Source: Lingula anatina
Taxonomy: Eukaryota > Animalia > Brachiopoda
Direction: 5' to 3'
DNA length: 64,000 bases
Assembly: GCA_051362555.1 (NCBI GenBank)
Contig: CM120641.1
Span: forward strand, 28,402,401-28,466,400
The notes under the pieces are model-generated. The model did no database searches, had not been told where the DNA came from, and saw only the letters and a program-made list of their open reading frames with translations. Below are positions 1 to 63,490 of the stretch, piece after piece (position 1 is the stretch's first letter; every line of letters starts with the position of its first letter). A program made the translations under genes and the position numbers.

Positions 1-3000
1 AGGACAAAGAAGATGATCAGCAACCCCACCCGGACATGGACTTCACTCTTGGATCCAAGCTAAGGTTAGTAAATTTTATTTTAAGGGGGTAGTGGGATTG
101 TTAATTTGAAAAAATCTAATCTAGTTTTTCATTTACTTTTACAGGACAAAGAAGATGATGAGCGACCCCACCCATAAATGGACTTCACTCTTGGATCTAA
201 GCTAAGGTTAGTAAATTTTATTTTCCTTTGGTGGTAGGATGGTTAATTTGAAAAAATCTAATCTTGTTTTTCATTTCTTTTTACAGGACAAAGAAGATGA
301 TGAGCGACCCCACCAGGACATGGACTTCACTCTTGGATCCAAGCTAAGGTTAGTAAATTTTATTTTAAGGGGGTAGTGGGATTGTTAATTTGAAAAAATC
401 TAATCTAGTTTTTCATTGACTTTTACAGGACAAAGAAGATGATGAGCGACCCCACCCGGATATGGACTTCACTCTTGGATCCAAGCTAAGGTTAGTAAAT
501 TTTATTTTAAGGGGGTAGTGGGATGGTTAAATTGAAAAAATCTAATCTAGTTTTTCATTTCTTTTTACAGGACAAAGAAGATGATGAGCGACCCCACCCG
601 GACATGGACTTCACTCTTGGATCCAAGCTAAGGTTAGTAAATTTTATTTTTCTTTGGTGGTGGGATGGGTAATTTGAAAATATCTTATCTTGCTTTTCAT
701 TTCTTTTTACAGGACAAAGAAGATGATGAGCGACCCCAACCGGAACATGGACTTCACTCTTGGATCCAAGCTAAGGTTATTAAATTTTATTTTTTTTGGT
801 AGTGGGATGGTTAAATTGAAAAAATCTAATCTTGTTTTTCATTTCTTTTTACAGGACAAAGAAGATGATGAGCAACCCCACCAGGACATGGACTTCACTC
901 TTGGATCCAAGCTAAGGTTAGTAAATTTTATTTTTTTTGGTAGTGGGATGGGTAAATTGAAAATATCTAACCTTGTTTTTTATTTCTTTTTACAGGATAA
1001 AGAAGATGATGAGCAACCCCACCCGGACATGTACTTCACTCTTGGATCTGAGCTAAGGTTAGTAAATTTTATTTTAAGGGGGTAGTGGGATTGTTAATTT
1101 GAAAAAATCTAATCTAGTTTTTCATTTACTTTTACAGGACAAAGAAGATGATGAGCGACCCCACCCGGACATGGACTTCACTCTTGGATCCAAGCTAGGG
1201 TTAGTAAATTTTATTTTATGGGGGTAGTGGGATGGTTAAATTGAAAAAATCTAATCTACTTTTTCATTTCTTTTTACAGGACAAAGAAGATGATGAGCAA
1301 CCCCACCCGGACATGGACTTCACTCTTGGATCCAAGCTAAGGTTAGTAAATTTTATTTTTGTGGGTTAGTGGGATGGTTAAATTGAAAAATTCTAATCTA
1401 GTTTTTCATTTCTTTTTACAGGACAAAGAAGATGATGAGCGACCCTACCCGGACATGGACTTCACTCTTGAATCCAAGCTAAGGTTAGTAAATTTTATTT
1501 TTCTTTGGTGGTGGGATGGGTAATTTGAAAATATCTTATCTTGTTTTTCATTTCTTTTTACAGGACAAAGAAGATGATGAGCGACCCCACCCGGAACATG
1601 GACTTCACTCTTGGATCCAAGCTAAGGTTAGTAAATTTTATTTTTTGGGGGGTAGTGGGATGGTTAAATTGAAAAAATCTAATCTTGTTTTTCATTTCTT
1701 TTTACAGGACAAAGAAGACGATGAGCGACCCCAGCAGGACATGGACTTCACTCTTGGATCCAAGCTAAGGTTAGTAAATTTTTTTTTTTGGTAGTGGGAT
1801 GGGTAAATTGAAAATATCTAACCTTGTTTTTCATTTCTTTTTACAGGACAAAGAAGATGATGAGCAACCCCACCCGGACATGGACTTCACTCTTGGATCC
1901 AAGCTAAGGTTAGTAAATTTTATTTTAAGGGGGTAGTGGGATTGTTAATTTGAAAAAATCTAATCTAGTTTTTCATTTACTTTTACAGGACAAAGAAGAT
2001 GATGAGCGACCCCACCCATAAATGGACTTCACTCTTGGATCCAAGCTAAGGTTAGTAAATTTTATTTTTTTTGGTAGTGGGATGGGTAAATTTGAAAAAA
2101 TCTAATCTAGTTTTTCATTGACTTTTACAGGACAAAGAAGATGATAAGCGACCCCACCCGGATATGGACTTCACTCTTGGATCCAAGCTAAGGTTAGTAA
2201 ATTTTATTTTAAGGGGGTAGTGGGATGGTTAAATTGAAAAAATCTAATCTAGTTTTTCATTTCTTTTTACAGGACAAAGAAGACGATGAGCAACCCCACC
2301 AGGACATGGACTTCACTCTTGGATCCAAGCTAAGGTTAGTAAATTTTATTTTTTTTGGTAGTGTGATGGGTAAATTGAAAATATCTAACCTTGTTTTTCA
2401 TTTCTTTTTACAGGACAAAGAAGATGATCAGCAACCCCACCCGGACATGGACTTCACTCTTGGATCCAAGCTAAGGTTAGTAAATTTTATTTTAAGGGGG
2501 TAGTGGGATTGTTTATTTGAAAAAATCTAATCTAGTTTTTCATTTACTTTTACAGGACAAAGAAGATGATGAGCGACCCCACCCATAAATGGACTTCACT
2601 CTTGGATCCAAGCTAAGGTTAGTAAATTTTATTTTTCTTTGGTGGTGGGATGGGTAATTTGAAAATATCTTATCTTGCTTTTCATTTCTTTTTACAGGAC
2701 AAAGAAGATGATGAGCGACCCCAACCGGAATATGGACTTCACTCTTGGATCCAAGCTAAGGTTAGTAAATTTTATTTTTTGGGGGGGTAGTGGGATGGTT
2801 AAATTGAAAAAATCTAATCTTGTTTTTCATTTCTTTTTACAGGACAAAGAAGATGATGAGCGACCCCACCAGGACATGGACTTCACTCTTGGATCCAAGC
2901 TAAGGTTAGTAAATTTTATTTTTTTTGGTAGTGGGATGGGTAAATTGAAAATATCTAACCTTGTTTTTTATTTCTTTTTACAGGATAAAGAAGATGATGA

Positions 3001-6000
3001 GCAACCCCACCCGGACATGGACTTCACTCTTGGATCCAAGCTAAGGTTAGTAAATTTTATTTTAAGGGGGTAGTGGGATTGTTAATTTGAAAAAATCTAA
3101 TCTAGTTTTTCATTTACTTTTACAGGACAAAGAAGATGATGAGCGACCCCACCCAGACATGGACTTCACTCTTGGATCCAAGCTAAGGTTAGTAAATTTT
3201 ATTTTAAGGGGGTAGTGGGATTGTTAATTTGAAAAAATCTAATGTAGTTTTTCATTGACTTTTACAGGACAAAGAAGATGATGAGCGACCCCACCCGGAT
3301 ATGGACTTCACTCTTGGATCCAAGCTAAGGTTAGTAAATTTTATTTTATGGGGGTAGTGGGATGGTTAAATTGAAAAAATCTAATCTAGTTTTTCATTTC
3401 TTTTTACAGGACAAAGAAGACGATGAGCGACCCCACCCGGACATGGACTTCACTCTTGGATCCAAGCTAAGGTTAGTAAATTTTATTTTATGGGGGTAGT
3501 CGGATGGTTAAATTGAAAAAATCTAATCTAGTTTTTCATTTCTTTTTACAGGACAAAGAAGATGATGAGCGACCCCACCCGGACATGGACTTCACTCTTG
3601 GATCCAAGCTAAGGTTAGTAAATTTTATTTTTTTGGGGGGTAGTGGGATGGTTAAATTGAAAAAATCTAATCTTGTTTTTCATTTCTTTTTACAGGACAA
3701 AGAAGATGATGAGCAACCCCACCAGGACATGGACTTCACTCTTGGATCCAAGCTAAGGTTAGTAAATTTTATTTTTTTTGGTAGTGGGATGGGTAAATTG
3801 AAAATATCTAACCTTGTTTTTTATTTCTTTTTACAGGATAAAGAAGATGATGAGCAACCCCACCCGGACATGGACTTCACTCTTGGATCTGAGCTAAGGT
3901 TAGTAAATTTTATTTTAAGGGGGTAGTGGGATTGTTAATTTGAAAAAATCTAATCTAGTTTTTCATTTACTTTTACAGGACAAAGAAGATGATGAGCGAC
4001 CCCAACCGGACATGGACTTCACTCTTGGATCCAAGCTAGGGTTAGTAAATTTTATTTTATGGGGGTAGTGGGATGGTTAAATTGAAAAAATCTAATCTAC
4101 TTTTTCATTTCTTTTTACAGGACAAAGAAGATGATGAGCAACCCCACCCGGACATGGACTTCACTCTTGGATCCAAGCTAAGGTTAGTAAATTTTATTTT
4201 TGTGGGTTAGTGGGATGGTTAAATTGAAAAATTCTAATCTAGTTTTTCATTTCTTTTTACAGGACAAAGAAGATGATGAGCGACCCTACCCGGACATGGA
4301 CTTCACTCTTGAATCCAAGCTAAGGTTAGTAAATTTTATTTTTCTTTGGTGGTGGGATGGGTAATTTGAAAATATCTTATCTTGTTTTTCATTTCTTTTT
4401 ACAGGACAAAGAAGATGATGAGCGACCCCACCCGGAACATGGACTTCACTCTTGGATCCAAGCTAAGGTTAGTAAATTTTATTTTTGTGGGTTAGTGGGA
4501 TGGTTAAATTGAAAAATTCTAATCTAGTTTTTCATTTCTTTTTACAGGACAAAGAAGATGATGAGCGACCCTACCCGGACATGGACTTCACTCTTGAATC
4601 CAAGCTAAGGTTAGTAAATTTTATTTTTCTTTGGTGGTGGGATGGGTAATTTGAAAATATCTTATCTTGTTTTTCATTTCTTCTTACAGGACAAAGAAGA
4701 TGATGAGCGACCCCACCCGGAACATGGACTTCACTCTTGGATCCAAGCTAAGGTTAGTAAATTTTATTTTTTGGGGGGTAGTGGGATGGTTAAATTGAAA
4801 AAATCTAATCTTGTTTTTCATTTCTTTTTACAGGACAAAGAAGACGATGAGCGACCCCAGCAGGACATGGACTTCACTCTTGGATCCAAGCTAAGGTTAG
4901 TAAATTTTTTTTTTTGGTAGTGGGATGGGTAAATTGAAAATATCTAACCTTGTTTTTCATTTCTTTTTACAGGACAAAGAAGATGATGAGCAACCCCACC
5001 CGGACATGGACTTCACTCTTGGATCCAAGCTAAGGTTAGTAAATTTTATTTTAAGGGGGTAGTGGGATTGTTAATTTGAAAAAATCTAATCTAGTTTTTC
5101 ATTTACTTTTACAGGACAAAGAAGATGATGAGCGACCCCACCCATAAATGGACTTCACTCTTGGATCCAAGCTAAGGTTAGTAAATTTTAATTTTTTTGG
5201 TAGTGGGATGGGTAAATTGAAAATATCTAACCTTGTTTTTTATTTCTTTTTACAGGATAAAGAAGATGATGAGCAACCCCACCCGGACATGGACTTCACT
5301 CTTGGATCCAAGCTAAGGTTAGTAAATTTTATTTTAAGGGGGTAGTGGGATTGTTAATTTGAAAAAATCTAATCTAGTTTTTCATTTACTTTTACAGGAC
5401 AAAGAAGATGATGAGCGACCCCACCCGGACATGGACTTCACTCTTGGATCCAAGCTAAGGTTAGTAAATTTTATTTTAAGGGGGTAGTGGGATTGTTAAT
5501 TTGAAAAAATCTAATCTAGTTTTTCATTGACTTTTACAGGACAAAGAAGATGATAAGCGACCCCACCCGGATATGGACTTCACTCTTGGATCCAAGCTAA
5601 GGTTAGTAAACTTTATTTTAAGGGGGTAGTGGGATGGTTAAATTGAAAAAATCTAATCTAGTTTTTCATTTCTTTTTACAGGACAAAGAAGACGATGAGC
5701 AACCCCACCAGGACATGGACTTCACTCTTGGATCCAAGCTAAGGTTAGTAAATTTTATTTTTTTTGGTAGTGTGATGGGTAAATTGAAAATATCTAACCT
5801 TGTTTTTTATTTCTTTTTACAGGACAAAGAAGATGATCAGCAACCCCACCCGGACATGGACTTCACTCTTGGATCTAAGCTAAGGTTAGTAAATTTTATT
5901 TTAAGGGGGTAGTGGGATTGTTAATTTGAAAAAATCTAATCTAGTTTTTCATTTACTTTTACAGGACAAAGAAGATGATGAGCGACCCCACCCATAAATG

Positions 6001-9000
6001 GACTTCACTCTTGGATCTAAGCTAAGGTTAGTAAATTTTATTTTCCTTTGGTGGTAGGATGGTTAATTTGAAAAAATCTAATCTTGTTTTTCATTTCTTT
6101 TTACAGGACAAAGAAGATGATGAGCGACCCCACCAGGACATGGACTTCACTCTTGGATCCAAGCTAAGGTTAGTAAATTTTATTTTTTTTGGTAGTGGGA
6201 TGGGTAAATTGAAAATATGTAACCTTGTTTTTTTATTTCTTTTTACAGGATAAAGAAGATGATGAGCAACCCCACCCGGACATGGACTTCACTCTTGGAT
6301 CCAAGCTAAGGTTAGTAAATTTTATTTTAAGGGGGTAGTGGGATTGTTAATTTGAAAAAATCTAATCTAGTTTTTCATTTACTTTTACAGGACAAAGAAG
6401 ATGATGAGCGACCCCACCCGGACATGGACTTCACTCTTGGATCCAAGCTAAGGTTAGTAAATTTTATTTTAAGGGGGTAGTGGGATTGTTAATTTGAAAA
6501 AATCTAATCTAGTTTTTCATTGACTTTTACAGGACAAAGAAGATGATGAGCGACCCCACCCGGATATGGACTTCACTCTTGGATCCAAGCTAAGGTTAGT
6601 AAATTTTATTTTAAGGGGGTAGTGGGATGGTTAAATTGAAAAAATCTAAACTAGTTTTTCATTTCTTTTTACAGGACAAAGAAGATGATGAGCGACCCCA
6701 CCCGGACATGGACTTCACTCTTGGATCCAAGCTAAGGTTAGTAAATTTTATTTTTCTTTGGTGGTGGGATGGGTAATTTGAAAATATCTTATCTTGCTTT
6801 TCATTTCTTTTTACAGGACAAAGAAGATGATGAGCGACCCCAACCGGAATATGGACTTCACTCTTGGATCCAAGCTAAGGTTAGTAAATTTTATTTTTTT
6901 GGGGGGTAGTGGGATGGTTAAATTGAAAAAATCTAATCTTGTTTTTCATTTCTTTTTACAGGACAAAGAAGATGATGAGCGACCCCACCAGGACATGGAC
7001 TTCACTCTTGGATCCAAGCTAAGGTTAGTAAATTTTATTTTTTTTGGTAGTGGGATGGGTAAATTGAAAATATCTAACCTTGTTTTTTATTTCTTTTTAC
7101 AGGATAAAGAAGATGATGAGCAACCCCACCCGGACATGGACTTCACTCTTGGATCCAAGCTAAGGTTAGTAAATTTTATTTTAAGGGGGTAGTGGGATTG
7201 TTAATTTGAAAAAATCTAATCTAGTTTTTCATTTACTTTTACAGGACAAAGAAGATGATGAGCGACCCCACCCAGACATGGACTTCACTCTTGGATCCAA
7301 GCTAAGGTTAGTAAATTTTATTTTAAGGGGGTAGTGGGATTGTTAATTTGAAAAAATCTAATCTAGTTTTTCATTGACTTTTACAGGACAAAGAAGATGA
7401 TGAGCGACCCCACCCGGATATGGACTTCACTCTTGGATCCAAGCTAAGGTTAGTAAATTTTATTTTATGGGGGTAGTGGGATTGTTAATTTGAAAAAATC
7501 TAATCTAGTTTTTCATTTACTTTTACAGGACAAAGAAGATGATGAGCGACCCCAACCGGACATGGACTTCACTCTTGGATCCAAGCTAGGGTTAGTAAAT
7601 TTCATTTTATGGGGGTAGTGGGATGGTTAAATTGAAAAAATCTAATCTACTTTTTCATTTCTTTTTACAGGACAAAGAAGATGATGAGCAACCCCACCCG
7701 GACATGGACTTCACTCTTGGATCCAAGCTAAGGTTAGTAAATTTTATTTTTGTGGGTTAGTGGGATGGTTAAATTGAAAAATTCTAATCTAGTTTTTCAT
7801 TTCTTTTTACAGGACAAAGAAGATGATGAGCGACCCTACCCGGACATGGACTTCACTCTTGAATCCAAGCTAAGGTTAGTAAATTTTATTTTTCTTTGGT
7901 GGTGGGATGGGTAATTTGAAAATATCTTATCTTGTTTTTCATTTCTTTTTACAGGACAAAGAAGATGATGAGCGACCCCACCCGGAACATGGACTTCACT
8001 CTTGGATCCAAGCTAAGGTTAGTAAATTTTATTTTTGTGGGTTAGTGGGATGGTTAAATTGAAAAATTCTAATCTAGTTTTTCATTTCTTTTTACAGGAC
8101 AAAGAAGATGATGAGCGACCCTACCCGGACATGGACTTCACTCTTGAATCCAAGCTAAGGTTAGTAAATTTTATTTTTCTTTGGTGGTGGGATGGGTAAT
8201 TTGAAAATATCTTATCTTGTTTTTCATTTCTTTTTACAGGACAAAGAAGATGATGAGCGACCCCACCCGGAACATGGACTTCACTCTTGGATCCAAGCTA
8301 AGGTTAGTAAATTTTATTTTTTGGGGGGTAGTGGGATGGTTAAATTGAAAAAATCTAATCTTGTTTTTCATTTCTTTTTACAGGACAAAGAAGACGATGA
8401 GCGACCCCAGCAGGACATGGACTTCACTCTTGGATCCAAGCTAAGGTTAGTAAATTTTTTTTTTTGGTAGTGGGATGGGTAAATTGAAAATATCTAACCT
8501 TGTTTTTCATTTCTTTTTACAGGACAAAGAAGATGATGAGCAACCCCACCCGGACATGGACTTCACTCTTGGATCCAAGCTAAGGTTAGTAAATTTTATT
8601 TTAAGGGGGTAGTGGGATTGTTAATTTGAAAAAATCTAATCTAGTTTTTCATTTACTTTTACAGGACAAAGAAGATGATGAGCGACCCCACCCATAAATG
8701 GACTTCACTCTTGGATCCAAGCTAAGGTTAGTAAATTTTATTTTTTTTGGTAGTGGGATGGGTAAATTGAAAATATCTAACCTTCTTTTTTATTTCTTTT
8801 TACAGGATAAAGAAGATGATGAGCAACCCCACCCGGACATGGACTTCACTCTTGGATCCAAGCTAAGGTTAGTAAATTTTATTTTAAGGGGGTAGTGGGA
8901 TTGTTAATTTGAAAAAATCTAATCTAGTTTTTCATTTACTTTTACAGGACAAAGAAGATGATGAGCGACCCCACCCGGACATGGACTTCACTCTTGGATC

Positions 9001-12000
9001 CAAGCTAAGGTTAGTAAATTTTATTTTAAGGGGGTAGTGGGATTGTTAATTTGAAAAAATCTAATCTAGTTTTTCATTGACTTTTACAGGACAAAGAAGA
9101 TGATAAGCGACCCCACCCGGATATGGACTTCACTCTTGGATCCAAGCTAAGGTTAGTAAATTTTATTTTAAGGGGGTAGTGGGATGGTTAAATTGAAAAA
9201 ATCTAATCTAGTTTTTCATTTCTTTTTACAGGACAAAGAAGACGATGAGCGACCCCACCCATAAATGGACTTCACTCTTGGATCTAAGCTAAGGTTAGTA
9301 AATTTTATTTTCCTTTGGTGGTAGGATGGTTAATTTGAAAAAATCTAATCTTGTTTTTCATTTCTTTTTACAGGACAAAGAAGATGATGAGCGACCCCAC
9401 CCGGATATGGACTTCACTCTTGGATCCAAGCTAAGGTTAGTAAATTTTATTTTAAGGGGGTAGTGGGATAGTTAAATTGAAAAAATCTAATCTAGTTTTT
9501 CATTTCTTTTTACAGGACAAAGAAGACGATGAGCAACCCCACCAGGACATGGACTTCACTCTTGGATCCAAGCTAAGGTTAGTAAATTTTATTTTTTTTT
9601 GGTAGTGTGATGGGTAAATTGAAAATATCTAACCTTGTTTTTCATTTCTTTTTACAGGACAAAGAAGATGATCAGCAACCCCACCCGGACATGGACTTCA
9701 CTCTTGGATCCAAGCTAAGGTTAGTAAATTTTATTTTAAGGGGGTAGTGGGATTGTTAATTTGAAAAAATCTAATCTAGTTTTTCATTTACTTTTACAGG
9801 ACAAAGAAGATGATGAGCGACCCCACCCATAAATGGACTTCACTCTTGGATCTAAGCTAAGGTTAGTAAATTTTATTTTCCTTTGGTGGTAGGATGGTTA
9901 ATTTGAAAAAATCTAATCTTGTTTTTCATTTCTTTTTACAGGACAAAGAAGATGATGAGCGACCCCACCAGGACATGGACTTCACTCTTGGATCCAAGCT
10001 AAGGTTAGTAAATTTTATTTTTTTGGTAGTGGGATGGGTAAATTGAAAATATGTAACCTTGTTTTTTATTTCTTTTTACAGGATAAAGAAGATGATGAGC
10101 AACCCCACCCGGACATGGACTTCACTCTTGGATCCAAGCTAAGGTTAGTAAATTTTATTTTAAGGGGGTAGTGGGATTGTTAATTTGAAAAAATCTAATC
10201 TAGTTTTTCATTTACTTTTACAGGACAAAGAAGATGATGAGCGACCCCACCCATAAATGGACTTCACTCTTGGATCCAAGCTAAGGTTAGTAAATTTTAT
10301 TTTTTTTGGTAGTGGGATGGGTAAATTGAAAATATCTAACCTTCTTTTTTATTTCTTTTTACAGGATAAAGAAGATGATGAGCAACCCCACCCGGACATG
10401 GACTTCACTCTTGGATCCAAGCTAAGGTTAGTAAATTTTATTTTAAGGGGGTAGTGGGATTGTTAATTTGAAAAAATCTAATCTAGTTTTTCATTTACTT
10501 TTACAGGACAAAGAAGATGATGAGCAACCCCACCCGGACATGGACTTCACTCTTGGATCCAAGCTAAGGTTAGTAAATTTTATTTTAAGGGGGTAGTGGG
10601 ATTGTTAATTTGAAAAAATCTAATCTAGTTTTTCATTGACTTTTACAGGACAAAGAAGATGATGAGCGACCCCAACCGGACATGGACTTCACTCTTGGAT
10701 CCAAGCTAGGGTTAGTAAATTTTATTTTATGGGGGTAGTGGGATGGTTAAATTGAAAAAATCTAATCTACTTTTTCATTTCTTTTTACAGGACAAAGAAG
10801 ATGATGAGCAACCCCACCCGGACATGGACTTCACTCTTGGATCCAAGCTAAGGTTAGTAAATTTTATTTTTGTGGGTTAGTGGGATGGTTAAATTGAAAA
10901 ATTCTAATCTAGTTTTTCATTTCTTTTTACAGGACAAAGAAGATGATGAGCAACCCTACCCGGACATGGACTTCACTCTTGAATCCAAGCTAAGGTTAGT
11001 AAATTTTATTTTTCTTTGGTGGTGGGATGGGTAATTTGAAAATATCTTATCTTGTTTTTCATTTCTTTTTACAGGACAAAGAAGATGATGAGCGACCCCA
11101 CCCGGAACATGGACTTCACTCTTGGATCCAAGCTAAGGTTAGTAAATTTTATTTTTGTGGGTTAGTGGGATGGTTAAATTGAAAAATTCTAATCTAGTTT
11201 TTCATTTCTTTTTACAGGACAAAGAAGATGATGAGCGACCCTACCCGGACATGGACTTCACTCTTGAATCCAAGCTAAGGTTAGTAAATTTTTTTTTTCT
11301 TTGGTGGTGGGATGGGTAATTTGAAAATATCTTATCTTGTTTTTCATTTCTTTTTACAGGACAAAGAAGATGATGAGCGACCCCACCCGGAACATGGACT
11401 TCACTCTTGGATCCAAGCTAAGGTTAGTAAATTTTATTTTTTGGGGGGTAGTGGGATGGTTAAATTGAAAAAATCTAATCTTGTTTTTCATTTCTTTTTA
11501 CAGGACAAAGAAGACGATGAGCGACCCCAGCAGGACATGGACTTCACTCTTGGATCCAAGCTAAGGTTAGTAAATTTTTTTTTTTGGTAGTGTGATGGGT
11601 AAATTGAAAATATCTAACCTTGTTTTTCATTTCTTTTTACAGGACAAAGAAGATGATCAGCAACCCCACCCGGACATGGACTTCACTCTTGGATCCAAGC
11701 TAAGGTTAGTAAATTTTATTTTAAGGGGGTAGTGGGATTGTTAATTTGAAAAAATCTAATCTAGTTTTTCATTTACTTTTACAGGACAAAGAAGATGATG
11801 AGCGACCCCACCCATAAATGGACTTCACTCTTGGATCTAAGCTAAGGTTAGTAAATTTTATTTTCCTTTGGTGGTAGGATGGTTAATTTGAAAAAATCTA
11901 ATCTTGTTTTTCATTTCTTTTTACAGGACAAAGAAGATGATGAGCGACCCCACCAGGACATGGACTTCACTCTTGGATCCAAGCTAAGGTTAGTAAATTT

Positions 12001-36000: not shown

Positions 36001-39000
36001 GACTTCACTCTTGGATCCAAGTTAAGGTTAGTAAATTTTATATTTCTGGGGTGGTGGGATGGGTTAATTGAAAACATCTAATCTTGTTTTTCTATTCTTT
36101 TTACAGGACAAAGAAGATGATGAGCGACCCCACCCGACATGGACTTCACTCTTGGATCCAAGCTAAGGTTAGTAAATTTTATTTTTCTTTGGTGGTAGGA
36201 TGGGTAAATTGAAAACATCTAATCTTGTTTTTCATTTATTTTAACAGGACAAAGAAGATGATGAGTGACCCCACCCGGATAGGACTTCAATCTTGATTCC
36301 AAGCTAAGGTTAGTAAATTTTATTTTTTTTGGTGGTGGGATGGGTAAATTGAAAATATCTAACCTTTTTTTCATTTCTTTTTACAGGATAAAGAAGATGA
36401 TGAGCAACCCCACCTGGACATGGACTTCACTCTTGGATCCAAGCTAAGGTTAGTAAATTTTATTTTTCTGGGGCAGTGGAATGGGTAAATTGAAAATATC
36501 TAACCTTGTTTTTCTATTCTTTTTACAGGACAAAGAAGATGATGAGCGACCCCACCCGGACATGGACTTCACTCTTGGATCCAAGCTAAGGTTAGTAAAT
36601 TTTATTTTTTGGGGGTAGTGGGATGATTGAATTGAAAAAATCTAATCTAGTTTTTCATTTATTTTTACAGGAGAAAGAAGATGATGAGCGACCCCACCCG
36701 GACATGGACTTCACTCTTGGATCCAAACTAAAGTTAGTAAATTTTATTTTTTTGTGGTGGTGGAATGGGTAAATTGAATACATCTAATCTTGTTTTTCGT
36801 TTCCTTTTACAGGTCAAAGAATATAATGAGCGACTCCACCCTAACATGGACTTCACTCTTGGATCCAAACTAAGGTTAGTAAATTTTATTTTTTTGTGGT
36901 GATGGGATGGGTAAATTGAAAACATCTAATCTAGTTTTTCATTATTTTTTACAGGACAAAGAAGATGATGACTGACCCCACCCGGAACATGGACTTTACT
37001 CTTGGATCCAAGCTAAGGTTAGTAAATTTTATCTTTTTGTGGTGATGGGATGGGTAAATTGAATATATCTAATCTTGTTTTTCATTTATTTTTACAGGAC
37101 AAAGAAGATGATGAGTGACCCCACCCAGACATGGACTTCACCCTTGGATCCCAGCTAAGGTTAGTAAATTTTATTTTTCTTTGGTGGTGGAATGGGTAAA
37201 TTGAATACATCTAATCTTGTTTTTCATTTCTTTTTACAGGACAAAGAAGATGATGAGCGACCCCACTCAGACATGGACTTCACTCTTGGATCCAAACTAA
37301 GGTTAGTAAATTTTATTTTTTTGTGGTGATGGGATGGGTAAATTGAAAAATCAAATCTAGTTTTTCATTTATTTTTATAGGACAAAGAAGATGATGAGTG
37401 ACCCCACCCGGATAGGACTTCAATCTTGGATCCAAGCTAAGGTTAGTAAATTTTATTTTTTTCGGTGGTGGGATGGGTAAATTGAAAATATCTAACCTTG
37501 TTTTTCATTTCTTTTTACAGGACAAAGAAGATGATGAGCAACCCCACCTGGACATGGATTTAACTCTTGGATCCAAGCTAAGGTTAGTAAATTTAATTTT
37601 TTTTGTGGTGGTGGGATGGGTAAATTGAAAATATCTAACCCTGTTTTTCATTACTTTTTACAGGACAAAGAAGATGATGAGCAACCCCACCCAGACATGG
37701 ACTTCACTGTTGGATCCAAGCTAAGGTTAGTAAATTTTATTGTTTGGGGGTAGCGGGATGGTTAAATTGAAAAAATCTAATCTAGTTTTTCATTTATTTT
37801 TAAAGGACAGAGAAGATGATGAGCGACCCCACTCGGACATGGACTTCACTCTTGGATCCAAGCTTAGGTTAGTAAATTTTATTTTTCTTTGGTGATGGAA
37901 TGGGTAAATTGTAAACATCTAATCTTGTTTTTCATGCCTTTTTACAGGACAAAGAAGATGATGAGCGACCCCACCAGGACATAGACTTCACTCTTGTATC
38001 CAAGTTAAGGTTAGTAAATTTTATATTTCTGGGGTGGTGGGATGGGTTAATTGAAAACATCTAATCTTGTTTGTCTATTCTTTTTACAGGACAAAGAAGA
38101 TGATGAGCGACCCCACCCGGACATGGACTACACTCTTGGATCCAAGCTAAGGTTAGTAAATTTTATTTTTCTTTGGTGGTGGGATGGGTAATTTGAAAAT
38201 ATCTTATCTTGTTTTTCGTTTCTTTTTACAGGTCAAAGAAGATGATGAGCGACTCCACCCGGACATTGACTTCACTCTTGGATCCAAACTAAGGTTAGTA
38301 AATTTTTTTTTTGTGGTGATGGGATGGGTTAATTGAAAAAATCTAATCTAGTTTTTCATTACTTTTTACAGGACAAAGAAGATCATGACTGACCCCACCC
38401 GGAACATGGACTTCACTCTTGGATCCAAGCTAAGGTTAGTAAATTTTGTCTTTTTGTGGTGATGGGATGGGTAAATTTAAAATATCTAATCTTGTTTTTC
38501 ATTTCTTTTTACAGGACAAAGAAGATGATGAGTGACCCCATCCAGACATGGACTTCACCCTTGGATCCCAGCTAAGGTAAGTAAATTTTATTTTTCTTTG
38601 GTGGTGGAATGGGTAAATTGAATACATTTAATCTTGTTTTTCATTTCTTTTTACAGGACAAAGAAGATGATGAGCGACCCCACCCAGACATGGACTTCAC
38701 TCTTCGATCCAAACAAAGGTTAGTAAATTTTATTTTTTAGTGGTGATGGGATGGGTAAATTGAAAAATCTAATCTAGTTTTTCATTTATTTTTATAGGAC
38801 AAAGAAGATGATGAGCGACCCCACCCGGACATAGACTTCACTCTTGGACTCAAGATAAGGTTAGTAAATTTTATTTTTCTTTTGTGGTAGGATGGGTAAA
38901 TTGAAAAAATTTAATCTTATTTTTCATTTCTTTTTACAGGTCAAAGAAGATGATGAGCGACTCCACCCGGACATGGACTTCACTATTGGATCCAAACTAA

Positions 39001-42000
39001 GGTCAGTAAATTTTATATTTCTGGGGCGGTGGGATGTGTAAATTGAAAACATCTAATCTTGTTTTTCATTTCTTTTTACAGGACAAAGAAGATGATGAGT
39101 GACCCCACCCAGACATGGACTTCACCCTTGGATCCCAGCTAAGGTTAGTAAATTTTATTTTTCTTTGGTGGTGGAATGGGTAAATTGAAAACATCTAATC
39201 TTGTTTTTCATTTCTTTTTACAGGACAAAGAAGATGATGAGTGACCCCACCCAGACATGGACTTCACTCTTGGACCAAAGATAAAGTTAGTAAATTTTAT
39301 TTTTCTTTGGTGGTAGGATGGGTAAATTGAAAAAATCTAATCTTATTTTTCGTTTCTTTTTACAGGACAAAGAAGATGATGAGCGACCCCACCAGGACAT
39401 AGACTTCACTCTTGGATCCAAGTTAAGGTTATTAAATTTTATATTTCTGGGGTGGTGGGATGGGTTAATTGAAAACATCTCATCTTGTTTTTCTATTCTT
39501 TTTACAGGACAAAGAAGATGATGAGCGACCCCACTCGACATGGACTTCACTCTTGGATCCAAACTAAGGTTAGTAAAGTTTATTTTTCTGGGGCGGTGGG
39601 ATGTGTAAATTGAAAAAATCTTATCTAGTTTTTCATTTATTTTTACAGGACAAAGAAGATGATGAGTAACCCCACCGGGATAGGAGTTCAATCTTGGATC
39701 CAAGCTAAGGTTAGTAAATTTTGTTTTTTTTTTATGGTGGGATGGGTAAATTGAAAATATCTAACCTTGTTTTTCATTTCTTTTTACAGGACAAAGAAGA
39801 TGATGAGCAACCCCACCTGGACATGGACTTCACTCTTGGATCCAAGCTAAGGTTAGTAAATTTTATTTTTATGGGGCGGTGGAATGGGTAAATTGAAAAT
39901 AGCTAACCTTGTTTTTCATTTCTTTTTACAGGACAAAGAAGATGATGAGCGACTCCACCCGGACATGGACTTCACTCTTGGATCCAAACTAAGGTTAGTA
40001 AATTTTATTTTTTTGTGGTGATGGGATGGGTTAATTGAAAAAATCTAATCTAGTTTTTCATTACTTTTTACAGGACAAAGAAGATGATGACTGACCCCAC
40101 CTGGAACATGGACTTCACTCTTGGATCCAAGCTAAGGTTAGTAAATTTTATCTTTTTGTGGTGATGGGATGGGTAAATTGAATATATCTAATCTTGTTTT
40201 TCATTTCTTTTTACAGGACAAAGAAGATGATGAGTGACACCATCCAGACATGGACTTCACCTTTGGATCCCAGCTAAGGTTAGTAAATTTTATTTTTCTT
40301 TGGTGGTGAAATGGGTAAATTGAATACATCTAATCTTGTTTTTCATTTCTTTTTACGGGACAAAGAAGATGATGAGTGATCCCACCCAGACATGGACTTC
40401 ACTCTTGGATCCAAGCTAAGGTTAGTAAATTTTATTTTTTGGGGGTAGTGGGATGGTTTAATTGAAAAAATCTAATTTAATTTTTTATTTATTTTTAAAG
40501 GACAAAGAAGATGAAGAGCGACCCCACCCGGACATGGACTTCACTCTTGGATCCAAGCTAAGGTTAGTAAATTTTGTTTTTTTTGGTGGTGGGATGGGTA
40601 AATTGAAAATATCTAACCTTGTTTTTCATTTCTTTTTACAGGACAAAGAAGATGATGAGCAACCCCACCTGGACATGGACTTCACTCTTGGATCCAAGCT
40701 AAGGTTAGTAAATTTTATTTTTATGGGGCGGTGGAATGGGTAAATTGAAAATAGCTAACTTTGTTTTTCATTTCTTTTTACAGGACAAAGAAGATGATGA
40801 CTGACCCCACCCGGAACATGGACTTCACTCTTGGATCCAAGTTAAGGTTAGTAAATTTTATTTTTTGGGGGTAGTGGGATGATTAAATTGAAAAAATCTA
40901 ATCTTGTTTTTCATTTATTTTTACAGGACAAAGAAGATGATGAGCGACCCCACCCGGACATGGACTTCACTCTTGGATCCAAGCTAAGGTTAGTAAATTT
41001 TATTTTTCTTTGGTGGTGGGATGGGTTAATTGAAAAAATCTAATCTAGTTTTTCATTACTTTTTACAGGACAAAGAAGATGATGAGCGACCCCACCCGGA
41101 ACATGGACTTCACTCTTGGATCCAAGCTAAGGTTAGTAAATTTTATCTTTTTGTGGTGATGGGATGGGTAAATTGAAAATATCTAATCTTGTTTTTCATT
41201 TCTTTTTACAGGACAAATAAGATGATGAGTGACCCCATCCAGACATGGACTTCACCCTTGGATCCCAGCTAAGGTTAGTAAATTTTATTTTTCTTTGGTG
41301 GTGGAATAGGTAAATTGAATACATCTAATCTTGTTTTTCATTTCTTTTTACAGGACAAAGAAGATGATGAACAACCCCACCCAGACATGGACTTCACTTT
41401 TGGATCCAAACTAAGGTTAGTAAATTTTATTTTTTTGTGGTGATGGGATGGGTAAATTGAAAAATCTAATCTAGTTTTTCATTTATTTTTATAGGACAAA
41501 GAAGATGATGAGCGACCCCACCCGGACATAGACTTCACCCTTGGATCCAAGCTAAGGTTAGTAAATTTTATTTTTCTTTGGTGGTGGAATGGGTAAATTG
41601 TAAAGATCTAATCTTGTTTTTCATTTCTTTTTACAGGACAAAGAAGATGATGAGCGACCCCACCCGGACATAGACTTCACCCTTGGATCCAAGCTAACGT
41701 TAGTAAATTTTATTTTTTGGGGGTAGTGGGATGGTTAAATTGAAGAAATCTAATCTAATTTTTCATTTATTTTTAAAGGACAAAGAAGATGAAGAGCGAC
41801 CCCACCCGGACATGGACTTCAGTCTTGGATCCAAACTAAGGTTAGTAAATTTTATTTTTTGGGGGGTGGTGAGAGGGGTAAATTGAAAAAATCTAACCTT
41901 GTATTTAATTTCTTTTTACAGGACAAAGAAGATGATGAGCGACCCCACCAGGACATAGACTTCACTCTTGGATGAAAGTTAAGGTTAGTAAATTTTATAT

Positions 42001-45000
42001 TTCTGGGGTGGTGGGATGGGTTAATTGAAAACATCTAATCTTGTTTTTTTATTCTTTTTACAGGACAAAGAAGATGATGAGCGACCCCACCTAGACATGG
42101 ACTTCACCCTTGGATCCAAGCTAAGGTTAGTAAATTTTATTTTTCTGGGGCGGTCTGATGTGTAAATTGAAAAAATCTTATCAAGTTTTTCATTTCTTTT
42201 TACAGGACAAAGAAGATGATGAGCAACCCCACCTGGACATGGACTTCACTCTTGGATCCAAGCTAAGGTTAGTAAATTTTATCTTTTTGGGGGTAGTGAG
42301 ATGGTTAAATTGAAAAAATCTAATCTTGTTTTTCATTTATTTTTACAGGACAAAGAAGATGATGAGCGACCCCACCCGGACATGGACTTCACTCTTGGAT
42401 TCAAGCTAAGGTTAGTAAATTTTATTTTTTTGTGGTGATGGGATGGGTAAATTGAAAAATCTAATCTAGTTTTTCATTTCTTTTTATAGGGCAAAGAAGA
42501 TGATGAGCGAACCCACCCGGACATAGACTTCACTCTTGGATCCAAGTTAAGGTTAGTAAATTTCCTATTTCTTTGGTGGTGGAATGGGTAAATTGAAAAA
42601 ATCTAATCTTGTTTTTCATTTCTTTTTACAGGACAAAGAAGATGATGAGCGACCCCACCCGGACATGGACTTCACTTTTGGATCCAAACTAAGGTTAGTA
42701 AATTTTATTTTTTTGTGGTGATGGGATGGGTAAATTGAAAAATCTAATCTAGTTTTTCATTTATTTTTATAGGACAAAGAAGATGATGAGCGACCCCACC
42801 CGGACATAGACTTCACCCTTGGATCCAAGCTAAGGTTAGTAAATTTTATTTTTCTTTGGTGGTGGAATGGGTAAATTGTAAAGATCTAATCTTGTTTTTC
42901 ATTTCTTTTTACAGGACAAAGAAGATGATGAGCGACCCCACCCGGACATAGACTTCACCCTTGGATCCAAGCTAACGTTAGTAAATTTTATTTTTTGGGG
43001 GTAGTGGGATGGTTAAATTGAAGAAATCTAATCTAATTTTTCATTTATTTTTAAAGGACAAAGAAGATGAAGAGCGACCCCACCCGGACATGGACTTCAG
43101 TCTTGGATCCAAACTAAGGTTAGTAAATTTTATTGTTTGGGGGGTGGTGAGAGGGGTAAATTGAAAAAATCTAACCTTGTATTTAATTTCTTTTTACAGG
43201 ACAAAGAAGATGATGAGCGACCCCACCAGGACATAGACTTCACTCTTGGATGAAAGTTAAGGTTAGTAAATTTTATATTTCTGGGGTGGTGGGATGGGTT
43301 AATTGAAAACATCTAATCTTGTTTTTTTATTCTTTTTACAGGACAAAGAAGATGATGAGCGACCCCACCTAGACATGGACTTCACCCTTGGATCCAAGCT
43401 AAGGTTAGTAAATTTTATTTTTCTGGGGCGGTCTGATGTGTAAATTGAAAAAATCTTATCAAGTTTTTCATTTCTTTTTACAGGACAAAGAAGATGATGA
43501 GCAACCCCACCTGGACATGGACTTCACTCTTGGATCCAAGCTAAGGTTAGTAAATTTTATCTTTTTGGGGGTAGTGAGATGGTTAAATTGAAAAAATCTA
43601 ATCTTGTTTTTCATTTATTTTTACAGGACAAAGAAGATGATGAGCGACCCCACCCGGACATGGACTTCACTCTTGGATTCAAGCTAAGGTTAGTAAATTT
43701 TATTTTTTTGTGGTGATGGGATGGGTAAATTGAAAAATCTAATCTAGTTTTTCATTTCTTTTTATAGGGCAAAGAAGATGATGAGCGAACCCACCCGGAC
43801 ATAGACTTCACTCTTGGATCCAAGTTAAGGTTAGTAAATTTCCTATTTCTTTGGTGGTGGAATGGGTAAATTGAAAAAATCTAATCTTGTTTTTCATTTC
43901 TTTTTACAGGACAAAGAAGATGATGAGCGACCCCACCCGGACATGGACTTCACTCTTGGATCCAAACTAAGGTTAGTAAATTTTATTTTTTTGTGGTGAT
44001 GGGATGGGTAAATTGAAAAATCTAATCTTGTTTTTCATTTATTTTTACAGGACAAAGAAGATGATGAGCGACCCCACCCGGACATAGACTTCACTCTTGG
44101 ATCCAAGTTAAGGTTAGTAAATTTTATATTTCTGGGGTGGTGGAATGGGTAAATTGAAAACATCTAATCTTGTTTTTCATTTATTTTTATAGGGCAAAGA
44201 AGATGATGAGCGAACCCACCCGGACATAGACTTCACTCTTGGATCCAAGTTAAGGTTAGTAAATTTTATATTTCTGGGGTGGTGGAATGGGTAAATTGAA
44301 AACATCTAATCTTGTTTTTCATTTCTTTTTACAGGACAAAGAAGATGATGAGCGACCCCACCCAGACATGGACTTCACCCTTGGATCCAAACTAAGGTTA
44401 GTAAATTTTATTTTTCTGGGGGGTGGGATGTGTAAATTGAAAAAATCTAATCTTGTTTTTTGTTCCTTTTTACAGGACAAAGAAGATGATGAGCGACCCC
44501 ACCAGGACATAGACTTCACTCTTGGATCCAAGTTAAGGTTAGTAAATTTAATATTTCTGGGGTGGTGGGATGGGTTAATTGAAAACATCTCATCTTGTTT
44601 TTCTATTCTTTTTACAGGACAAAGAAGATGATGAGCGACCCCACCCGACATGGACTTCACTCTTGGATCCAAACTAAGGTTAGTAAATTTTATTTTTCTG
44701 GGGCGGTGGGATGTGTAAATTGAAAAAATCTTATCTAGTTTTTCATTTATTTTTACAGGACAAAGAAGATGATGAGTGACCCCACCCGGATAGGACTTCA
44801 ATCTTGGATCCAAGCTAAGGTTAGTAAATTTTATTTTTTTTGGTGGTGGGATGGGTAAATTGAAAAAATCTAATCTAATTTTTCATTTATTATTACAGGA
44901 GAAAGAAGATGATGAGCGACCCCACCCGGACATGGACTTCACTCTTGGACCGAAGCTAAGGTTAGTAAATTTTATATTTCTGGGGTGATGTGATGGGTAA

Positions 45001-46143
45001 ATTGAAAAAATCTAATCTTGTTTTTCATTTTTTTTTTACAGGACAAAGAAGATGATGAGCGACCTCAACCGGACATAGACTTCACTCTTGGATCCAAGTT
45101 AAGGTTAGTAAATTTTATTTTTCTTTGGTGGTAGGATAGGTAAATTGAAAACATCTAATCTTGTTTTTCATTTCTTTTTACAGGACAAAGAAGATGATGA
45201 GCAACCCCACCGGACATGGACTTCACTCTTGGATCCACGCTAAGGTTAGTAAATTTGATTTTTTGGGGGTAGTGGGATGGTTAAATTGAAAAAATCTAAA
45301 CTAATTTTTCATTTATTTTTACAAGACAAAGAAGATGATGAGCGACCCCACCCGGACATGGACTTCACTCTCGGATCCAAGCTAAGGTTAGTAAATCTTA
45401 TTTTTGGGGGGTAGTGGGATGGTAAAATTGAAAAAATCTAATCTTGTTTTTTATTACATTTTACAGGACAAAGAAGATGATGAGCGATCCCATCCGGACA
45501 TGGACTTCACTCTTGGATCCAAGCTAAGGTTAGTAAATTTTATTTTTTTGTGGTGGTGGGATGGGTAAATTGAAAACATCTAATCTTGTTTTTCATTTCT
45601 TTTTACAGGACAAAGAAGATGATGAGCGACCCCACCCGGACATGTACTTCACTCTTGGATCCAAGCTAAGGTTAGTAAATTTGATTTTTTGGGGGTAGTG
45701 GGATGGTTAAATTGAAAAAATCTAATCTAGTTTTTCATTTATTTTTACAGGACTAAGAAGATGATGAGCGACCCCACCCGGACATAGACTTCACTCTTGT
45801 ATCCAAGCTAAGGTTATTAAATTTTATTTTTCTTTGGTGGTGGGATGGGTAAATTGAAAATATCTTATCTTGTTTTTTATTTCTTTTTACAGGACAAAGA
45901 AGATGATGAGCGACCCCACCCGGACATAGACCTCACTCTTGGATCCAAGTTAAGGTTTGTAAATTTTATATTTCTGGGGTGGTGGGATGGGTAAATTGAA
46001 AAAATCTAATCTTGTTTTTCTATTCTTTTTACAGGACAAAGAAGATGATGAGCGTCCCCACCCGGACATGGACTTCACTCTTGTATCCAAGCTAAGGTTA
46101 GTAAATTTTATTTTTTTGGGGTGGTGGGATGGGTTAATTGAAA
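1..46143 (+). repeat. Tandem satellite-like array, ~142-bp monomer, ~324 copies, truncated by the left window edge
   Basis: Core GACAAAGAAGATGATGAGCGACCCCACCCGGACATGGACTTCACTCTTGGATCCAAGCTAAG recurs every 141-144 bp (first core 3-64, second starts 145, last 46035-46096). Copy number estimated as span divided by ~142. Confidence 0.99.
3..46096 (+). ncRNA. Putative multi-exonic repeat-built non-coding transcript (each monomer = 62-nt exon + ~80-nt intron); transcription unproven
   Basis: Unit 1: AG at 1-2, exon-like 3-64, intron-like 65-144 = GTTAGT...GGGGGTAGTGGG...TCTAAT...TTTTTCATTTACTTTTACAG. The same signal set is present in nearly all units. Two consecutive 62-nt cores joined give a TAA or TGA in every frame. 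No promoter or terminal exon is visible in the window. Confidence 0.4.
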
Positions 46144-49100: not shown

Positions 49101-49789
49101 TTTATTACACAATACACAATAACAGGTTTACCATCATTTTTAAATAATCAACTAACATGTCAAAAGAAAAACTTTACATATCTAATTAGTTCAAAAATGA
49201 GACTGTTAACATGCCTGAGAATTAAATTTGAGGAAAAAACATATACAAAAAAAGGCATAACTTCACCAAAATGTACCTGATCAAGCTTATTTTTAAAAAT
49301 TAATCTGTATTTCAGTAACATTGATCACTCCTGTGAATTTCAAGACAATTGGCCAATCAATTTTCCTTAAAATGTGTTATAGGTGTTGCATATATGCTGA
49401 AAAAAGTGAAAAAAAAAAACAGCAATCTTTTATAAAAATGGCAAGATCATGCCAATTTTCTAACTTGACCTGCATATTATGGATATTCATCAGTTCTGTA
49501 AGTTTCAATCCAAAAGGAAAAATGATTTTCCAGTTATCATGTTATCAGTGTTGCATAAATGCTGAAAAAACTGAAAAAACAGCATAACTTTTATAAAAAA
49601 TGGCCCGATCATCCGGATTTTCGAACTTGGCCTGCGTATTTTGACTATTCATCAGTTCTAGAAGTTTCAAGCCAAAAAGTAAAATGGTTTTCCACATATC
49701 GTGTTAGCGGTAAAAGTGCACAATGACGGCAATAGCGACGACAGATGCAGGTGACGGCTAATGTACACATCTGTGTCTGTACATAAAAA
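46141..49789 (-). mobile_element. Non-autonomous Helentron-type element (HINE/DINE-1-like), copy 1, ~3.65 kb
   Basis: Subterminal inverted repeats ATGTACAGACA (46164-46174) and TGTCTGTACAT (49774-49784); short terminal stem-loop GGCAGC-AAA-GCTGTC next to AAACAAG; decayed GACGGC-type microsatellite near 49725-49745; internal tandem repeats; A/T-run ends with no TSD; both ends homologous to 52893-54681. Confidence 0.8.
47900..48870. repeat. Internal ~340-bp diverged tandem repeats of HINE copy 1
   Basis: ATGCAAT...ATAATGCTTAACAGCATAATGACCATCAAT recurs near 48021, 48357 and 48713, and in copy 2 near 53268 and 53590. Confidence 0.85.
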
Positions 49790-50213
49790 TCTTTCACATT
49801 AGTTCTTCAATCAACCAATTGAGCAACCTTTTTTTTTTTTTGTAACTGCTTCAATTTCTTTCAAGAATCCAAGTGCATTTTCTGGCTTTAAATCTGAGAA
49901 TAAACAGTAAATTTTTTCAGTAAATAGCTAGAACTGAAACTGTTAACCTCCAATATTCCAATGTCCACCTAAAGTATTTTCAGTAGGGCATGTGGCTATC
50001 CAGTGGAGAAGCCTCCATCCAAGAGATGTGTACTTGCCCCCCACCCCCCCAAATTAATGACAATGCTTTAGATAGACATTTAAATATTTCATGTACACAA
50101 CTTCACATCGTGATGTTGAAGTTACCATTTTATTCCAAGCTGATGAAATTTTCTGACTTCAAACCCAAATCGTGAACTTGGATATACACAAAACAAGAAT
50201 AACTTTTTTCTGT

Positions 50214-52413: not shown

Positions 52414-63490
<11,077 letters not shown>

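What the first reader, a model, noticed from the sequence alone, without database searches (positions are those of the whole stretch)
1..46143. Satellite whose monomer is a complete exon-intron unit: a possible spliced repeat RNA of 300+ exons
Seen: each ~142-bp monomer has YAG | 62-nt core | AG/GTTAGT donor, then G-runs, CTAAT/CTAAC with the branch A about 26 nt before the acceptor, a T-rich tract and (T/C)AG, all on one strand with the right order and spacing (unit 1: exon 3-64, intron 65-144). The core starts with purine-rich GAAGATGATGA. Core length is nearly fixed (61-63 nt) and variation is concentrated in the spacer. Established: these are the standard U2-type signals, and GGG runs and GAR-rich motifs are known splicing enhancers. 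Inference: the array may be a gene body giving a spliced RNA of about 20 kb made of one 62-nt repeat (a repeat-scaffold lncRNA, a splicing-factor or EJC sink, or a small-RNA precursor), or a satellite amplified from one ancestral exon and intron. I do not recognise it as a described family.
Basis: partly seen in the sequence, partly recalled or inferred. Interest (0 to 1): 0.9.

Follow-up and report, generated by a model that had tools for sequence, protein, structure and literature searches.

The report
Brachiopod satellite made of spliceable exons
A 142-base repeat, present 325 times in a row here and probably over a thousand times in the lamp shell Lingula, is one tiny exon plus one intron, and RNA reads show copies of it joined exon to exon at the predicted splice sites, although most of that RNA appears to come from more diverged copies elsewhere in the genome rather than from this array.

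Summary
Observation confirmed. Bases 1-46143 hold 325 units of 142 bp, each a 61-63 nt exon plus a 77-83 nt GT-AG intron with branch point and pyrimidine tract on the + strand. The flank is a Lingula anatina Smurf gene. RNA is strand-biased and drops at both exon edges. No such joint was listed in two DNA contig sets (a weak control). However, expression is low (0.2-4.5 reads per million), and the RNA carries alleles absent from or rare in this array. The family is much larger than the window. So spliced repeat RNA exists, but this array being its 300-exon gene body is not shown. It is non-coding. Splice-critical bases vary less than expected (P 0.001-0.03). Best reading: a satellite amplified from one exon-intron cassette of a spliced non-coding gene family. 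No description was found in 9 paper searches.

The parts
1..46143 (+). Tandem array of 325 exon+intron units (142 bp), open at the left window edge; local higher-order periods of about 8-12 units; 234 distinct units among 324
3..64 (+). Exon of unit 1 (62 nt; 61-63 nt across units), non-coding
   Evidence: exon-exon RNA joints for the family
65..144 (+). Intron of unit 1 (80 nt): GTTAGT donor, G-rich middle, CTAAT branch site with A at -26, T-rich tract, CAG
541..682 (+). Single rotated monomer used as the target for RNA and DNA reads (exon 571-632)
46035..46143 (+). Last exon (46035-46096) and a truncated last intron (47 of 80 nt) with donor but no acceptor
46144..46332 (+). Dispersed repeat that begins exactly where the array ends (79% like 52897-53078); first + strand AATAAA after the array at 46185
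52414..63490 (-). Neighbour, not part of the array: 3' part of the Smurf HECT E3 ligase gene (WW and HECT exons), tail-to-tail with the array; identifies the organism as Lingula anatina

Best explanation
This is a high-copy Lingula satellite whose monomer is one 62-nt exon plus one 80-nt intron, RNA reads of the family are joined exon to exon at its splice sites, and it likely arose by tandem amplification of one cassette of a spliced non-coding gene. Shown: the anatomy; one-strand-biased, low-level RNA; exon-to-exon joints; no coding constraint; a family larger and more varied than this array. Inferred mechanism: RNA polymerase II reads through a few older, diverged members from an upstream promoter and unique exon. 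The spliceosome removes each short intron and leaves a non-coding RNA of repeated ~62-nt exons. The sense strand has almost no poly(A) signal, which would allow long read-through. Unequal crossing-over then expanded and homogenised blocks such as this one, which are probably methylated (CpG decay) and mostly silent in the sampled tissues but still spliceable. The lower variation at splice bases suggests that this block or its recent ancestors were under weak selection to stay spliceable. For the role of the RNA (untested, my odds): by-product or inert host transcript 50%, locus-bound scaffold that gathers splicing factors 25%, small-RNA precursor that silences the satellite 25%.
For: Joint 630->569 'goes back 62' with 3 ambiguous letters (AGG on both sides, so equal to 632|571, GT..AG): X11 7 reads/3 starts, X13 9 reads/6 starts, all first mate on -, with up to 62 letters on the shorter side. 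Joints and loose ends at 569/570 carry diverged exon ends (periods 62, 63, 58) and one unrelated upstream sequence not in the window. Pooled depth, intron over exon, at acceptor and donor: 0.63 and 0.58 for first-mate-minus reads, 0.84 and 0.93 for the other orientation, 0.79 and 0.84 for DNA contigs. Strand ratio is about 127:20. DNA contigs (12,972 and 6,202 laid) list unit-to-unit joints but no 62-base joint. Seven RNA-enriched alleles are at 9-40% of reads, 0.1-3.5% of DNA and 0-9 of 324 window units. Alleles 576T and 585C are at 13-25% of DNA and 0 of 324 here. Rough family size is at least ~1,000 units (inference). Splice-critical sites show 8 changes over 7 sites against about 4 per site elsewhere, P=0.0009 base-matched; distinct alleles 6 of 21 against 10.7 expected, P=0.026. 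AATAAA occurs 2 times on + and 340 times on -. The two CpGs are CA/TG in 118 and 50 of 324 units.
Against: The exact joint is listed in only 2 of 6 RNA runs, both from study P5. It is 0 in X14 and X17, and not listed in X12 or X18 (listing needs 3 reads; these two were laid at 84% rather than 88%). Only 6-26% of each RNA run was read. The DNA control is weak: contigs drop rare forms, only a few contigs were scored as joints even for the genomic 140-base step, and 51 between-letter rows and 110 loose-end rows were not shown. Unspliced unit-to-unit reads also occur (X11 3, X17 2, plus 651->541 rows). Library orientation was taken from the tool's general rule, with no control gene laid. RNA and assembly are from different animals, so allele differences could partly be population differences. 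The conservation test uses non-independent copies on a poorly resolved tree, and 8 units have lost the AG. No genome was available, so the transcribed loci, the promoter and the left end were not seen. The direction of origin (gene to satellite, or satellite recruited into genes) is not tested.
Confidence: 0.6

Rival explanations
1. This array itself is the body of a very long spliced non-coding RNA (20 kb or more, 300+ near-identical exons), made in a tissue or stage that was poorly sampled, such as the germ line, and running tail-to-tail towards Smurf.
For: Splice bases are more conserved than expected inside this array. 316 of 324 introns keep GT..AG. The sense strand is nearly free of AATAAA, with one 42 nt after the array end. 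The exact 62-base joints are between copies at least 88% like a window unit. Some reads carry alleles common in the window (590A in 9 of 41 X11 reads vs 79 of 324 units). Expression varies 20-fold between runs.
Against: Many RNA alleles are absent here. 0 of 56 X11 and 0 of 37 X13 reads are 99%+ like the reference unit, though only 8 of 324 window units are. CpG decay suggests methylation. The last intron is cut by a dispersed repeat. Levels are very low for a family of this size.
Confidence: 0.25
2. The joined reads come from an exon-only tandem repeat already present in DNA (a retro-copied or deleted form), or from template switching or small circles, so no present-day splicing is needed.
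For: The DNA control shows presence, not absence. The joint has 3 ambiguous letters. It was seen in one study only.
Against: No 62-base joint was listed in two whole DNA contig sets, and no spacer in the window is under 77 nt. Joints fall exactly on GT/AG, on one orientation only. Neighbouring exons differ in sequence and length, which a single-exon circle cannot give. A retro-copy would itself need earlier splicing.
Confidence: 0.08
3. The exons are protein-coding: a repeat protein, or a Dscam-like cluster of mutually exclusive exons encoding a 20-residue acidic peptide.
For: Frame 1 of the common exon is open. Two diverged 63-nt RNA exons, read by eye from loose ends, would keep frame. Third codon positions change more often (5.0 vs 3.1 and 2.0).
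Against: After correcting for base type there is no synonymous excess in any of 6 frames (frame 1: 20 observed vs 19.2 expected). 60 of 325 exons have a stop, and 59 are not 62 nt. The joined exons have a longest open frame of 97 codons. No credible protein relative was found. Reads join repeats in series rather than choosing one.
Confidence: 0.04
4. The unit is a spliced-leader RNA gene array or a host for an intronic small RNA (snoRNA, mirtron).
For: The donor is followed by a U-rich, Sm-site-like run, and the exon holds an RUGAUGA motif (seen in the sequence; motif names recalled).
Against: Reads per million are under 5, and there is no mass of diverse sequences behind the donor. The unit has its own acceptor, which is used. 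There is no Rfam match near threshold and no unusual fold (z -0.06 to -0.85).
Confidence: 0.03

Closest known systems
SNHG14 / SNORD116 host-gene repeat (PMC13326403, passages read)
   Same: Non-coding transcript whose body is a tandem array of hundreds of units with repeated host exons (317 SNORD116 copies in pig), homogenised in groups.
   Different: Each SNHG14 unit carries a snoRNA. Here the 80-nt intron has no detectable cargo, the unit is satellite-sized, and the family has many divergent arrays.
Firre lncRNA with exonic RRD local repeats (PMC9074896, passages read)
   Same: Spliced non-coding RNA made largely of repeated exons.
   Different: Human isoforms have 0-6 RRD exons at one locus. 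Here exon and intron are amplified together as a 142-bp satellite of hundreds to thousands of copies.
Chicken LL2R tandem repeat RNA (10.64898/2026.03.19.712899; abstract, sections 29 and 32 read)
   Same: One-strand transcribed tandem array, dense in splice sites, poor in poly(A) signals.
   Different: LL2R has over three times more donors than acceptors and is thought to splice poorly. This unit has one of each in working order, and joined exons are seen. Condensates are untested here.
Intragenic tandem arrays with one exon per unit: NBPF, LPA, DMBT, DAZ (PMC2588610, passages read)
   Same: Repeat unit equals exon plus intron.
   Different: Those are protein-coding. The units listed in the passages read are kilobases long (NBPF ~1.5 kb, DAZ 2.4 kb). 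This one is non-coding and 142 bp.
Spliced pericentromeric RNAs, e.g. fission yeast intron-like elements (review PMC10356649, passages read)
   Same: Repeat-derived RNA processed by the spliceosome, linked there to heterochromatin.
   Different: There the monomer is not itself an exon-intron unit. Centromeric position is untested here, and the array ends about 6 kb from a conserved gene.

Membership tests
Satellite DNA | Long head-to-tail array of a short monomer | tested here: met
   46 kb, 325 x 142 bp, mean pairwise identity 0.90
Satellite DNA | High genomic copy number with array-specific variants | tested here: met
   Thousands of DNA contigs laid; alleles at 13-25% in DNA are absent from the window; at least ~1,000 units by inference
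Centromeric satellite | CENP-A binding or centromeric position | not testable with these tools
   No genome held
U2-type exon-intron unit | GT donor, branch A, pyrimidine tract and YAG in order on one strand | tested here: met
U2-type exon-intron unit | Intron removed in RNA (family level) | tested here: met
   16 reads, 9 starts, 2 of 6 runs, one study; no such joint listed in DNA contigs, a weak control
Repeat-exon lncRNA gene (Firre/SNHG14-like) | This array is transcribed as one unit with promoter and 3' end | tested here: inconclusive
   RNA alleles mostly not of this array; left end outside the window; no long reads among the runs laid
Repeat-exon lncRNA gene (Firre/SNHG14-like) | No protein-coding potential | tested here: met
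snoRNA/miRNA host array (SNHG14 type) | Structured small RNA in each intron | tested here: not met
   Best Rfam scores 12-20 bits against gathering 33-85; fold z > -0.9
Spliced-leader RNA array | Exon trans-spliced to many mRNAs, abundant, no own acceptor used | tested here: not met
   Under 5 reads per million; acceptor used; few loose ends behind the donor
Coding repeat or mutually exclusive exon cluster | Frame and codon constraint | tested here: not met
LL2R-type architectural RNA | Nascent RNA retained at the locus and recruiting splicing factors | not testable with these tools
   Needs RNA-FISH and immunostaining
piRNA/siRNA precursor | Small-RNA reads from the unit | not tested
   No small-RNA run was listed

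The most novel reading that the evidence does not exclude
A satellite whose every monomer is a functional exon-intron unit kept spliceable by selection. Whole arrays, this one included, are read as genes of hundreds of exons. They give a spliced, polyadenylated RNA made of one 62-nt repeat, which loads a spliceosome and exon-junction complex every 62 nt and acts as a splicing-factor scaffold or as the licensed precursor of small RNAs that control the satellite.
Probability: 0.25. Interest if true: 0.9.

Novelty: new variant of a known kind. Interest (0 to 1): 0.7.

Why it matters
It is a direct link between genes and satellite DNA: a nucleosome-sized satellite monomer that is a working exon plus intron, with spliced RNA seen. 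It gives a testable case for how satellites are born from transcribed sequence and whether splicing helps a cell handle or silence repeat RNA. Hundreds of natural variants of one 80-nt intron also make a ready-made splice-site mutagenesis series in a lophotrochozoan. If whole arrays are spliced end to end, they would be among the most exon-dense transcription units known (comparison from recall).

Tried and rejected
No whole genome was held, so other loci and the left end could not be examined. No RNA holder was listed in the run index; this is no evidence either way. Parent-protein searches: PDB 0 hits for the 20-residue frame; word search among longer proteins 2 candidates, none scoring; HMMER over 1.84 billion representatives 3 hits, all unnamed repetitive sequences of 30-44% identity, taken as chance. 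Pfam was not run: one search failed on a frame slip and was not repeated. Rfam found nothing near threshold in the array or flank. There is no second copy of the monomer in the flank. Three loose-end motifs from RNA are not in the window at up to 3 mismatches. A 28-base exon pattern had 0 matches in metagenome contigs. The third-codon-position excess vanished after base correction. Lack of sense-strand AATAAA follows from one monomer sequence and is weak evidence by itself. Earlier-finding look-ups by sequence and by genome were empty.
Full report
Observation. Tandem Repeats Finder gives one array from 1 to 46143, period 142, 324.8 copies. It parses into 325 cores of 61, 62 or 63 nt (10, 266, 49) and 324 spacers of 77-83 nt. 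All 325 cores are followed by GT (298 AAG|GTTAGT); 316 of 324 spacers end in AG (297 CAG, 15 TAG, 4 AAG). The branch-type A sits 26 nt from the intron end and never varies. A strict rule for donor, branch, tract and acceptor in order was met by 0 of 20,000 shuffles of one monomer, and a loose rule by 147; 213 and 294 of 324 real units pass. The rules are post hoc, and the monomer shuffled passes only the loose one. The claim that variation is concentrated in the spacer is not supported: a few spacer sites are highly polymorphic, but medians (P=0.50) and changes per site are alike.

Context. The array ends inside an intron, exactly where a dispersed repeat begins (46144; second copy at 52897). 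About 6 kb further, on the - strand, lie the WW and HECT exons of a Smurf E3 ligase; a 70-residue stretch is 100% identical to the Lingula anatina protein, the next best hit with more than 85% being 90%. The organism is therefore taken as this brachiopod. No genome was held. Ten DNA runs of four studies hold the repeat, so it is not an assembly artefact.

RNA test. One monomer (541-682, exon 571-632) was the target for six raw RNA runs of three studies and two DNA contig sets. Reads laid: 56, 37, 37, 18, 10 and 2, that is 4.5 to 0.2 per million records, from 6-26% of each run. A joint that goes back 62 bases, with three ambiguous letters that make it equal to exon end 632 joined to exon start 571, was seen in X11 (7 reads, 3 starts) and X13 (9 reads, 6 starts). 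All were first-mate-minus, which by the tool's general rule means + strand RNA; no control gene was laid. It was 0 in X14 and X17 and not listed in X12 and X18, where a row needs 3 reads. X12 shows loose ends at both exon edges (3 and 4 reads). Both positive runs belong to one study. Further joints end at the same acceptor with diverged exon ends between (X11: 4 and 4 reads, periods 63 and 62; X13: 2 reads, period 58). One loose end in X13 (4 reads) is an unrelated sequence abutting the acceptor and absent from the window; it is a candidate unique upstream exon. Unspliced unit-to-unit reads also occur (X11 3, X17 2, and 2 each in three 651->541 rows). Pooled depth falls at the exon edges in the main orientation (intron/exon 0.63 and 0.58) more than in the other orientation (0.84, 0.93) or in DNA (0.79, 0.84). 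The DNA sets (12,972 and 6,202 contigs laid) list unit-length joints but no 62-base joint. This control is weak: contigs drop rare forms, few contigs score as joints, and 51 and 110 rows of two tables were not shown.

Which copies are expressed. I picked seven alleles because they looked enriched in RNA. Pooled over X11, X12 and X13 they stand at 9-40% of reads, against 0.1-3.5% of DNA depth and 0, 6, 1, 0, 0, 0 and 9 of 324 window units. Conversely, two alleles at 13-25% of DNA are in 0 of 324 window units and nearly absent from X12. So three pools differ: this array, the bulk genomic family, and the transcribed copies. If three window-typical alleles were confined to this array, the family would have at least about 900-1,700 units (one estimate 6,900) (inference, since summed contig depth is no copy number). 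Most RNA thus seems to come from a few older, diverged members. Some reads may come from this array (590A in 9 of 41 X11 reads, 24% of window units), but none can be assigned. RNA and assembly are from different animals.

Coding or cargo. The common exon reads as 20 open codons in frame 1, but 62 nt shifts frame. The 325 exons joined in a script give 20,189 nt with a longest open frame of 97 codons. 60 of 325 exons have a stop, and no frame shows synonymous excess. No protein relative was found. Rfam and folding show no small-RNA cargo. Low abundance and a used acceptor exclude a spliced-leader array.

Selection on splicing. Seven canonical positions (donor +1, +2, +5; branch T and A; acceptor AG) carry 8 parsimony changes against about 4 per site elsewhere (base-matched P=0.0009; GT/AG alone P=0.005). 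Counting distinct alleles gives 6 of 21 against 10.7 expected (P=0.026). Copies are not independent and the tree is poorly resolved, so this is suggestive. It is the main evidence that this array, or its recent ancestor, was kept spliceable. The two CpGs are decayed to CA/TG in 118 and 50 of 324 units, against about 2.5% for other C/G transitions, which points to germ-line methylation (inference). AATAAA occurs 2 times on the sense strand and 340 on the antisense.

Mechanism. Most likely (0.6) one exon-intron cassette of a spliced non-coding gene was amplified in tandem into a satellite family. A minority of diverged members are still transcribed on the sense strand and spliced into repeat RNA, while homogenised blocks such as this one are mostly quiet in the tissues sampled. 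The anatomy, the joints, the allele pools and the lack of coding are shown; origin, promoter, silencing and function are inferred. An exon-only DNA copy or artefact (0.08), a coding cluster (0.04) and a small-RNA or leader array (0.03) fit worse.

Comparison with what is known. It works like repeat-exon non-coding genes: SNHG14, with 317 SNORD116 units in pig (PMC13326403, passages), and Firre, with up to six RRD exons in human isoforms (PMC9074896, passages). It fails the cargo test for the first and is far smaller in unit and larger in number than the second. Chicken LL2R is a one-strand, splice-site-rich, poly(A)-poor tandem RNA that gathers splicing factors but has unbalanced sites (10.64898/2026.03.19.712899; abstract and sections 29, 32). 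Exon-per-unit arrays in human genes are coding (PMC2588610, passages). Splicing of pericentric RNA is linked to heterochromatin in fission yeast (PMC10356649, passages). The main text of the Lingula chromosome-level genome paper has no occurrence of 'satellite', 'tandem', 'centromer' or 'lncRNA' (PMC13121700, term search). Its supplements were not opened, and its repeat tables may list the family unnamed. Nine library searches (listings only for papers not named above) showed no description of this repeat or of a satellite monomer that is a spliced exon-intron unit; the library lacks most subscription papers. An earlier AI note reports a 286-bp repeat with one-sided splice signals in another animal, without RNA data. 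It is unchecked, but it hints that the pattern may recur.

Verdict. Real, and more than sequence resemblance: the family is spliced. It is a new variant of repeat-exon non-coding units, at satellite scale. Interest 0.7; it would be 0.9 if long reads show whole arrays spliced end to end.

Noticed in passing
RNA runs X11, X12, X13, X17, X18 and DNA X4, matching window 552-590 only: A distant relative of the unit keeps the acceptor region and the first 20 exon bases and then diverges. It appears with its intron end attached in 5 of 6 RNA runs of two studies (3-10 reads each), which suggests one old copy inside a steadily expressed transcript. It probably accounts for part of the RNA-enriched alleles (563G, 575T).
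   Followed up: partly
window 52414-63490, - strand: 3' part of the Smurf (C2-WW-HECT) E3 ligase gene, tail-to-tail with the array. The database cluster holds two named Lingula Smurf proteins of equal length on different scaffolds, possibly two haplotypes.
   Followed up: partly
window 46144-49800 and 52897-54681: Two related blocks of dispersed repeats (for example 48685-49789 vs 53559-54681, 78%), each with 160-162 bp tandem units. One block abuts the array end, the other lies in the last Smurf intron.
   Followed up: no
window 46351-46504: Inverted repeat with 65-nt arms, 75% complementary, 24 nt apart, 200 bases after the array; looks like a small non-autonomous element.
   Followed up: no
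window 1-46143: Local higher-order periods (best-match offsets 9, 10, 8, 12, 11 and 20 units) and a gradient from homogeneous left to more diverged right (exon identity about 0.97 to 0.94-0.96), suggesting that the array's active centre lies left of the window.
   Followed up: partly
window 61046-61151: Weak Rfam U6 match (21.5 bits, gathering 44, E 0.2) in a Smurf intron; probably chance.
   Followed up: no
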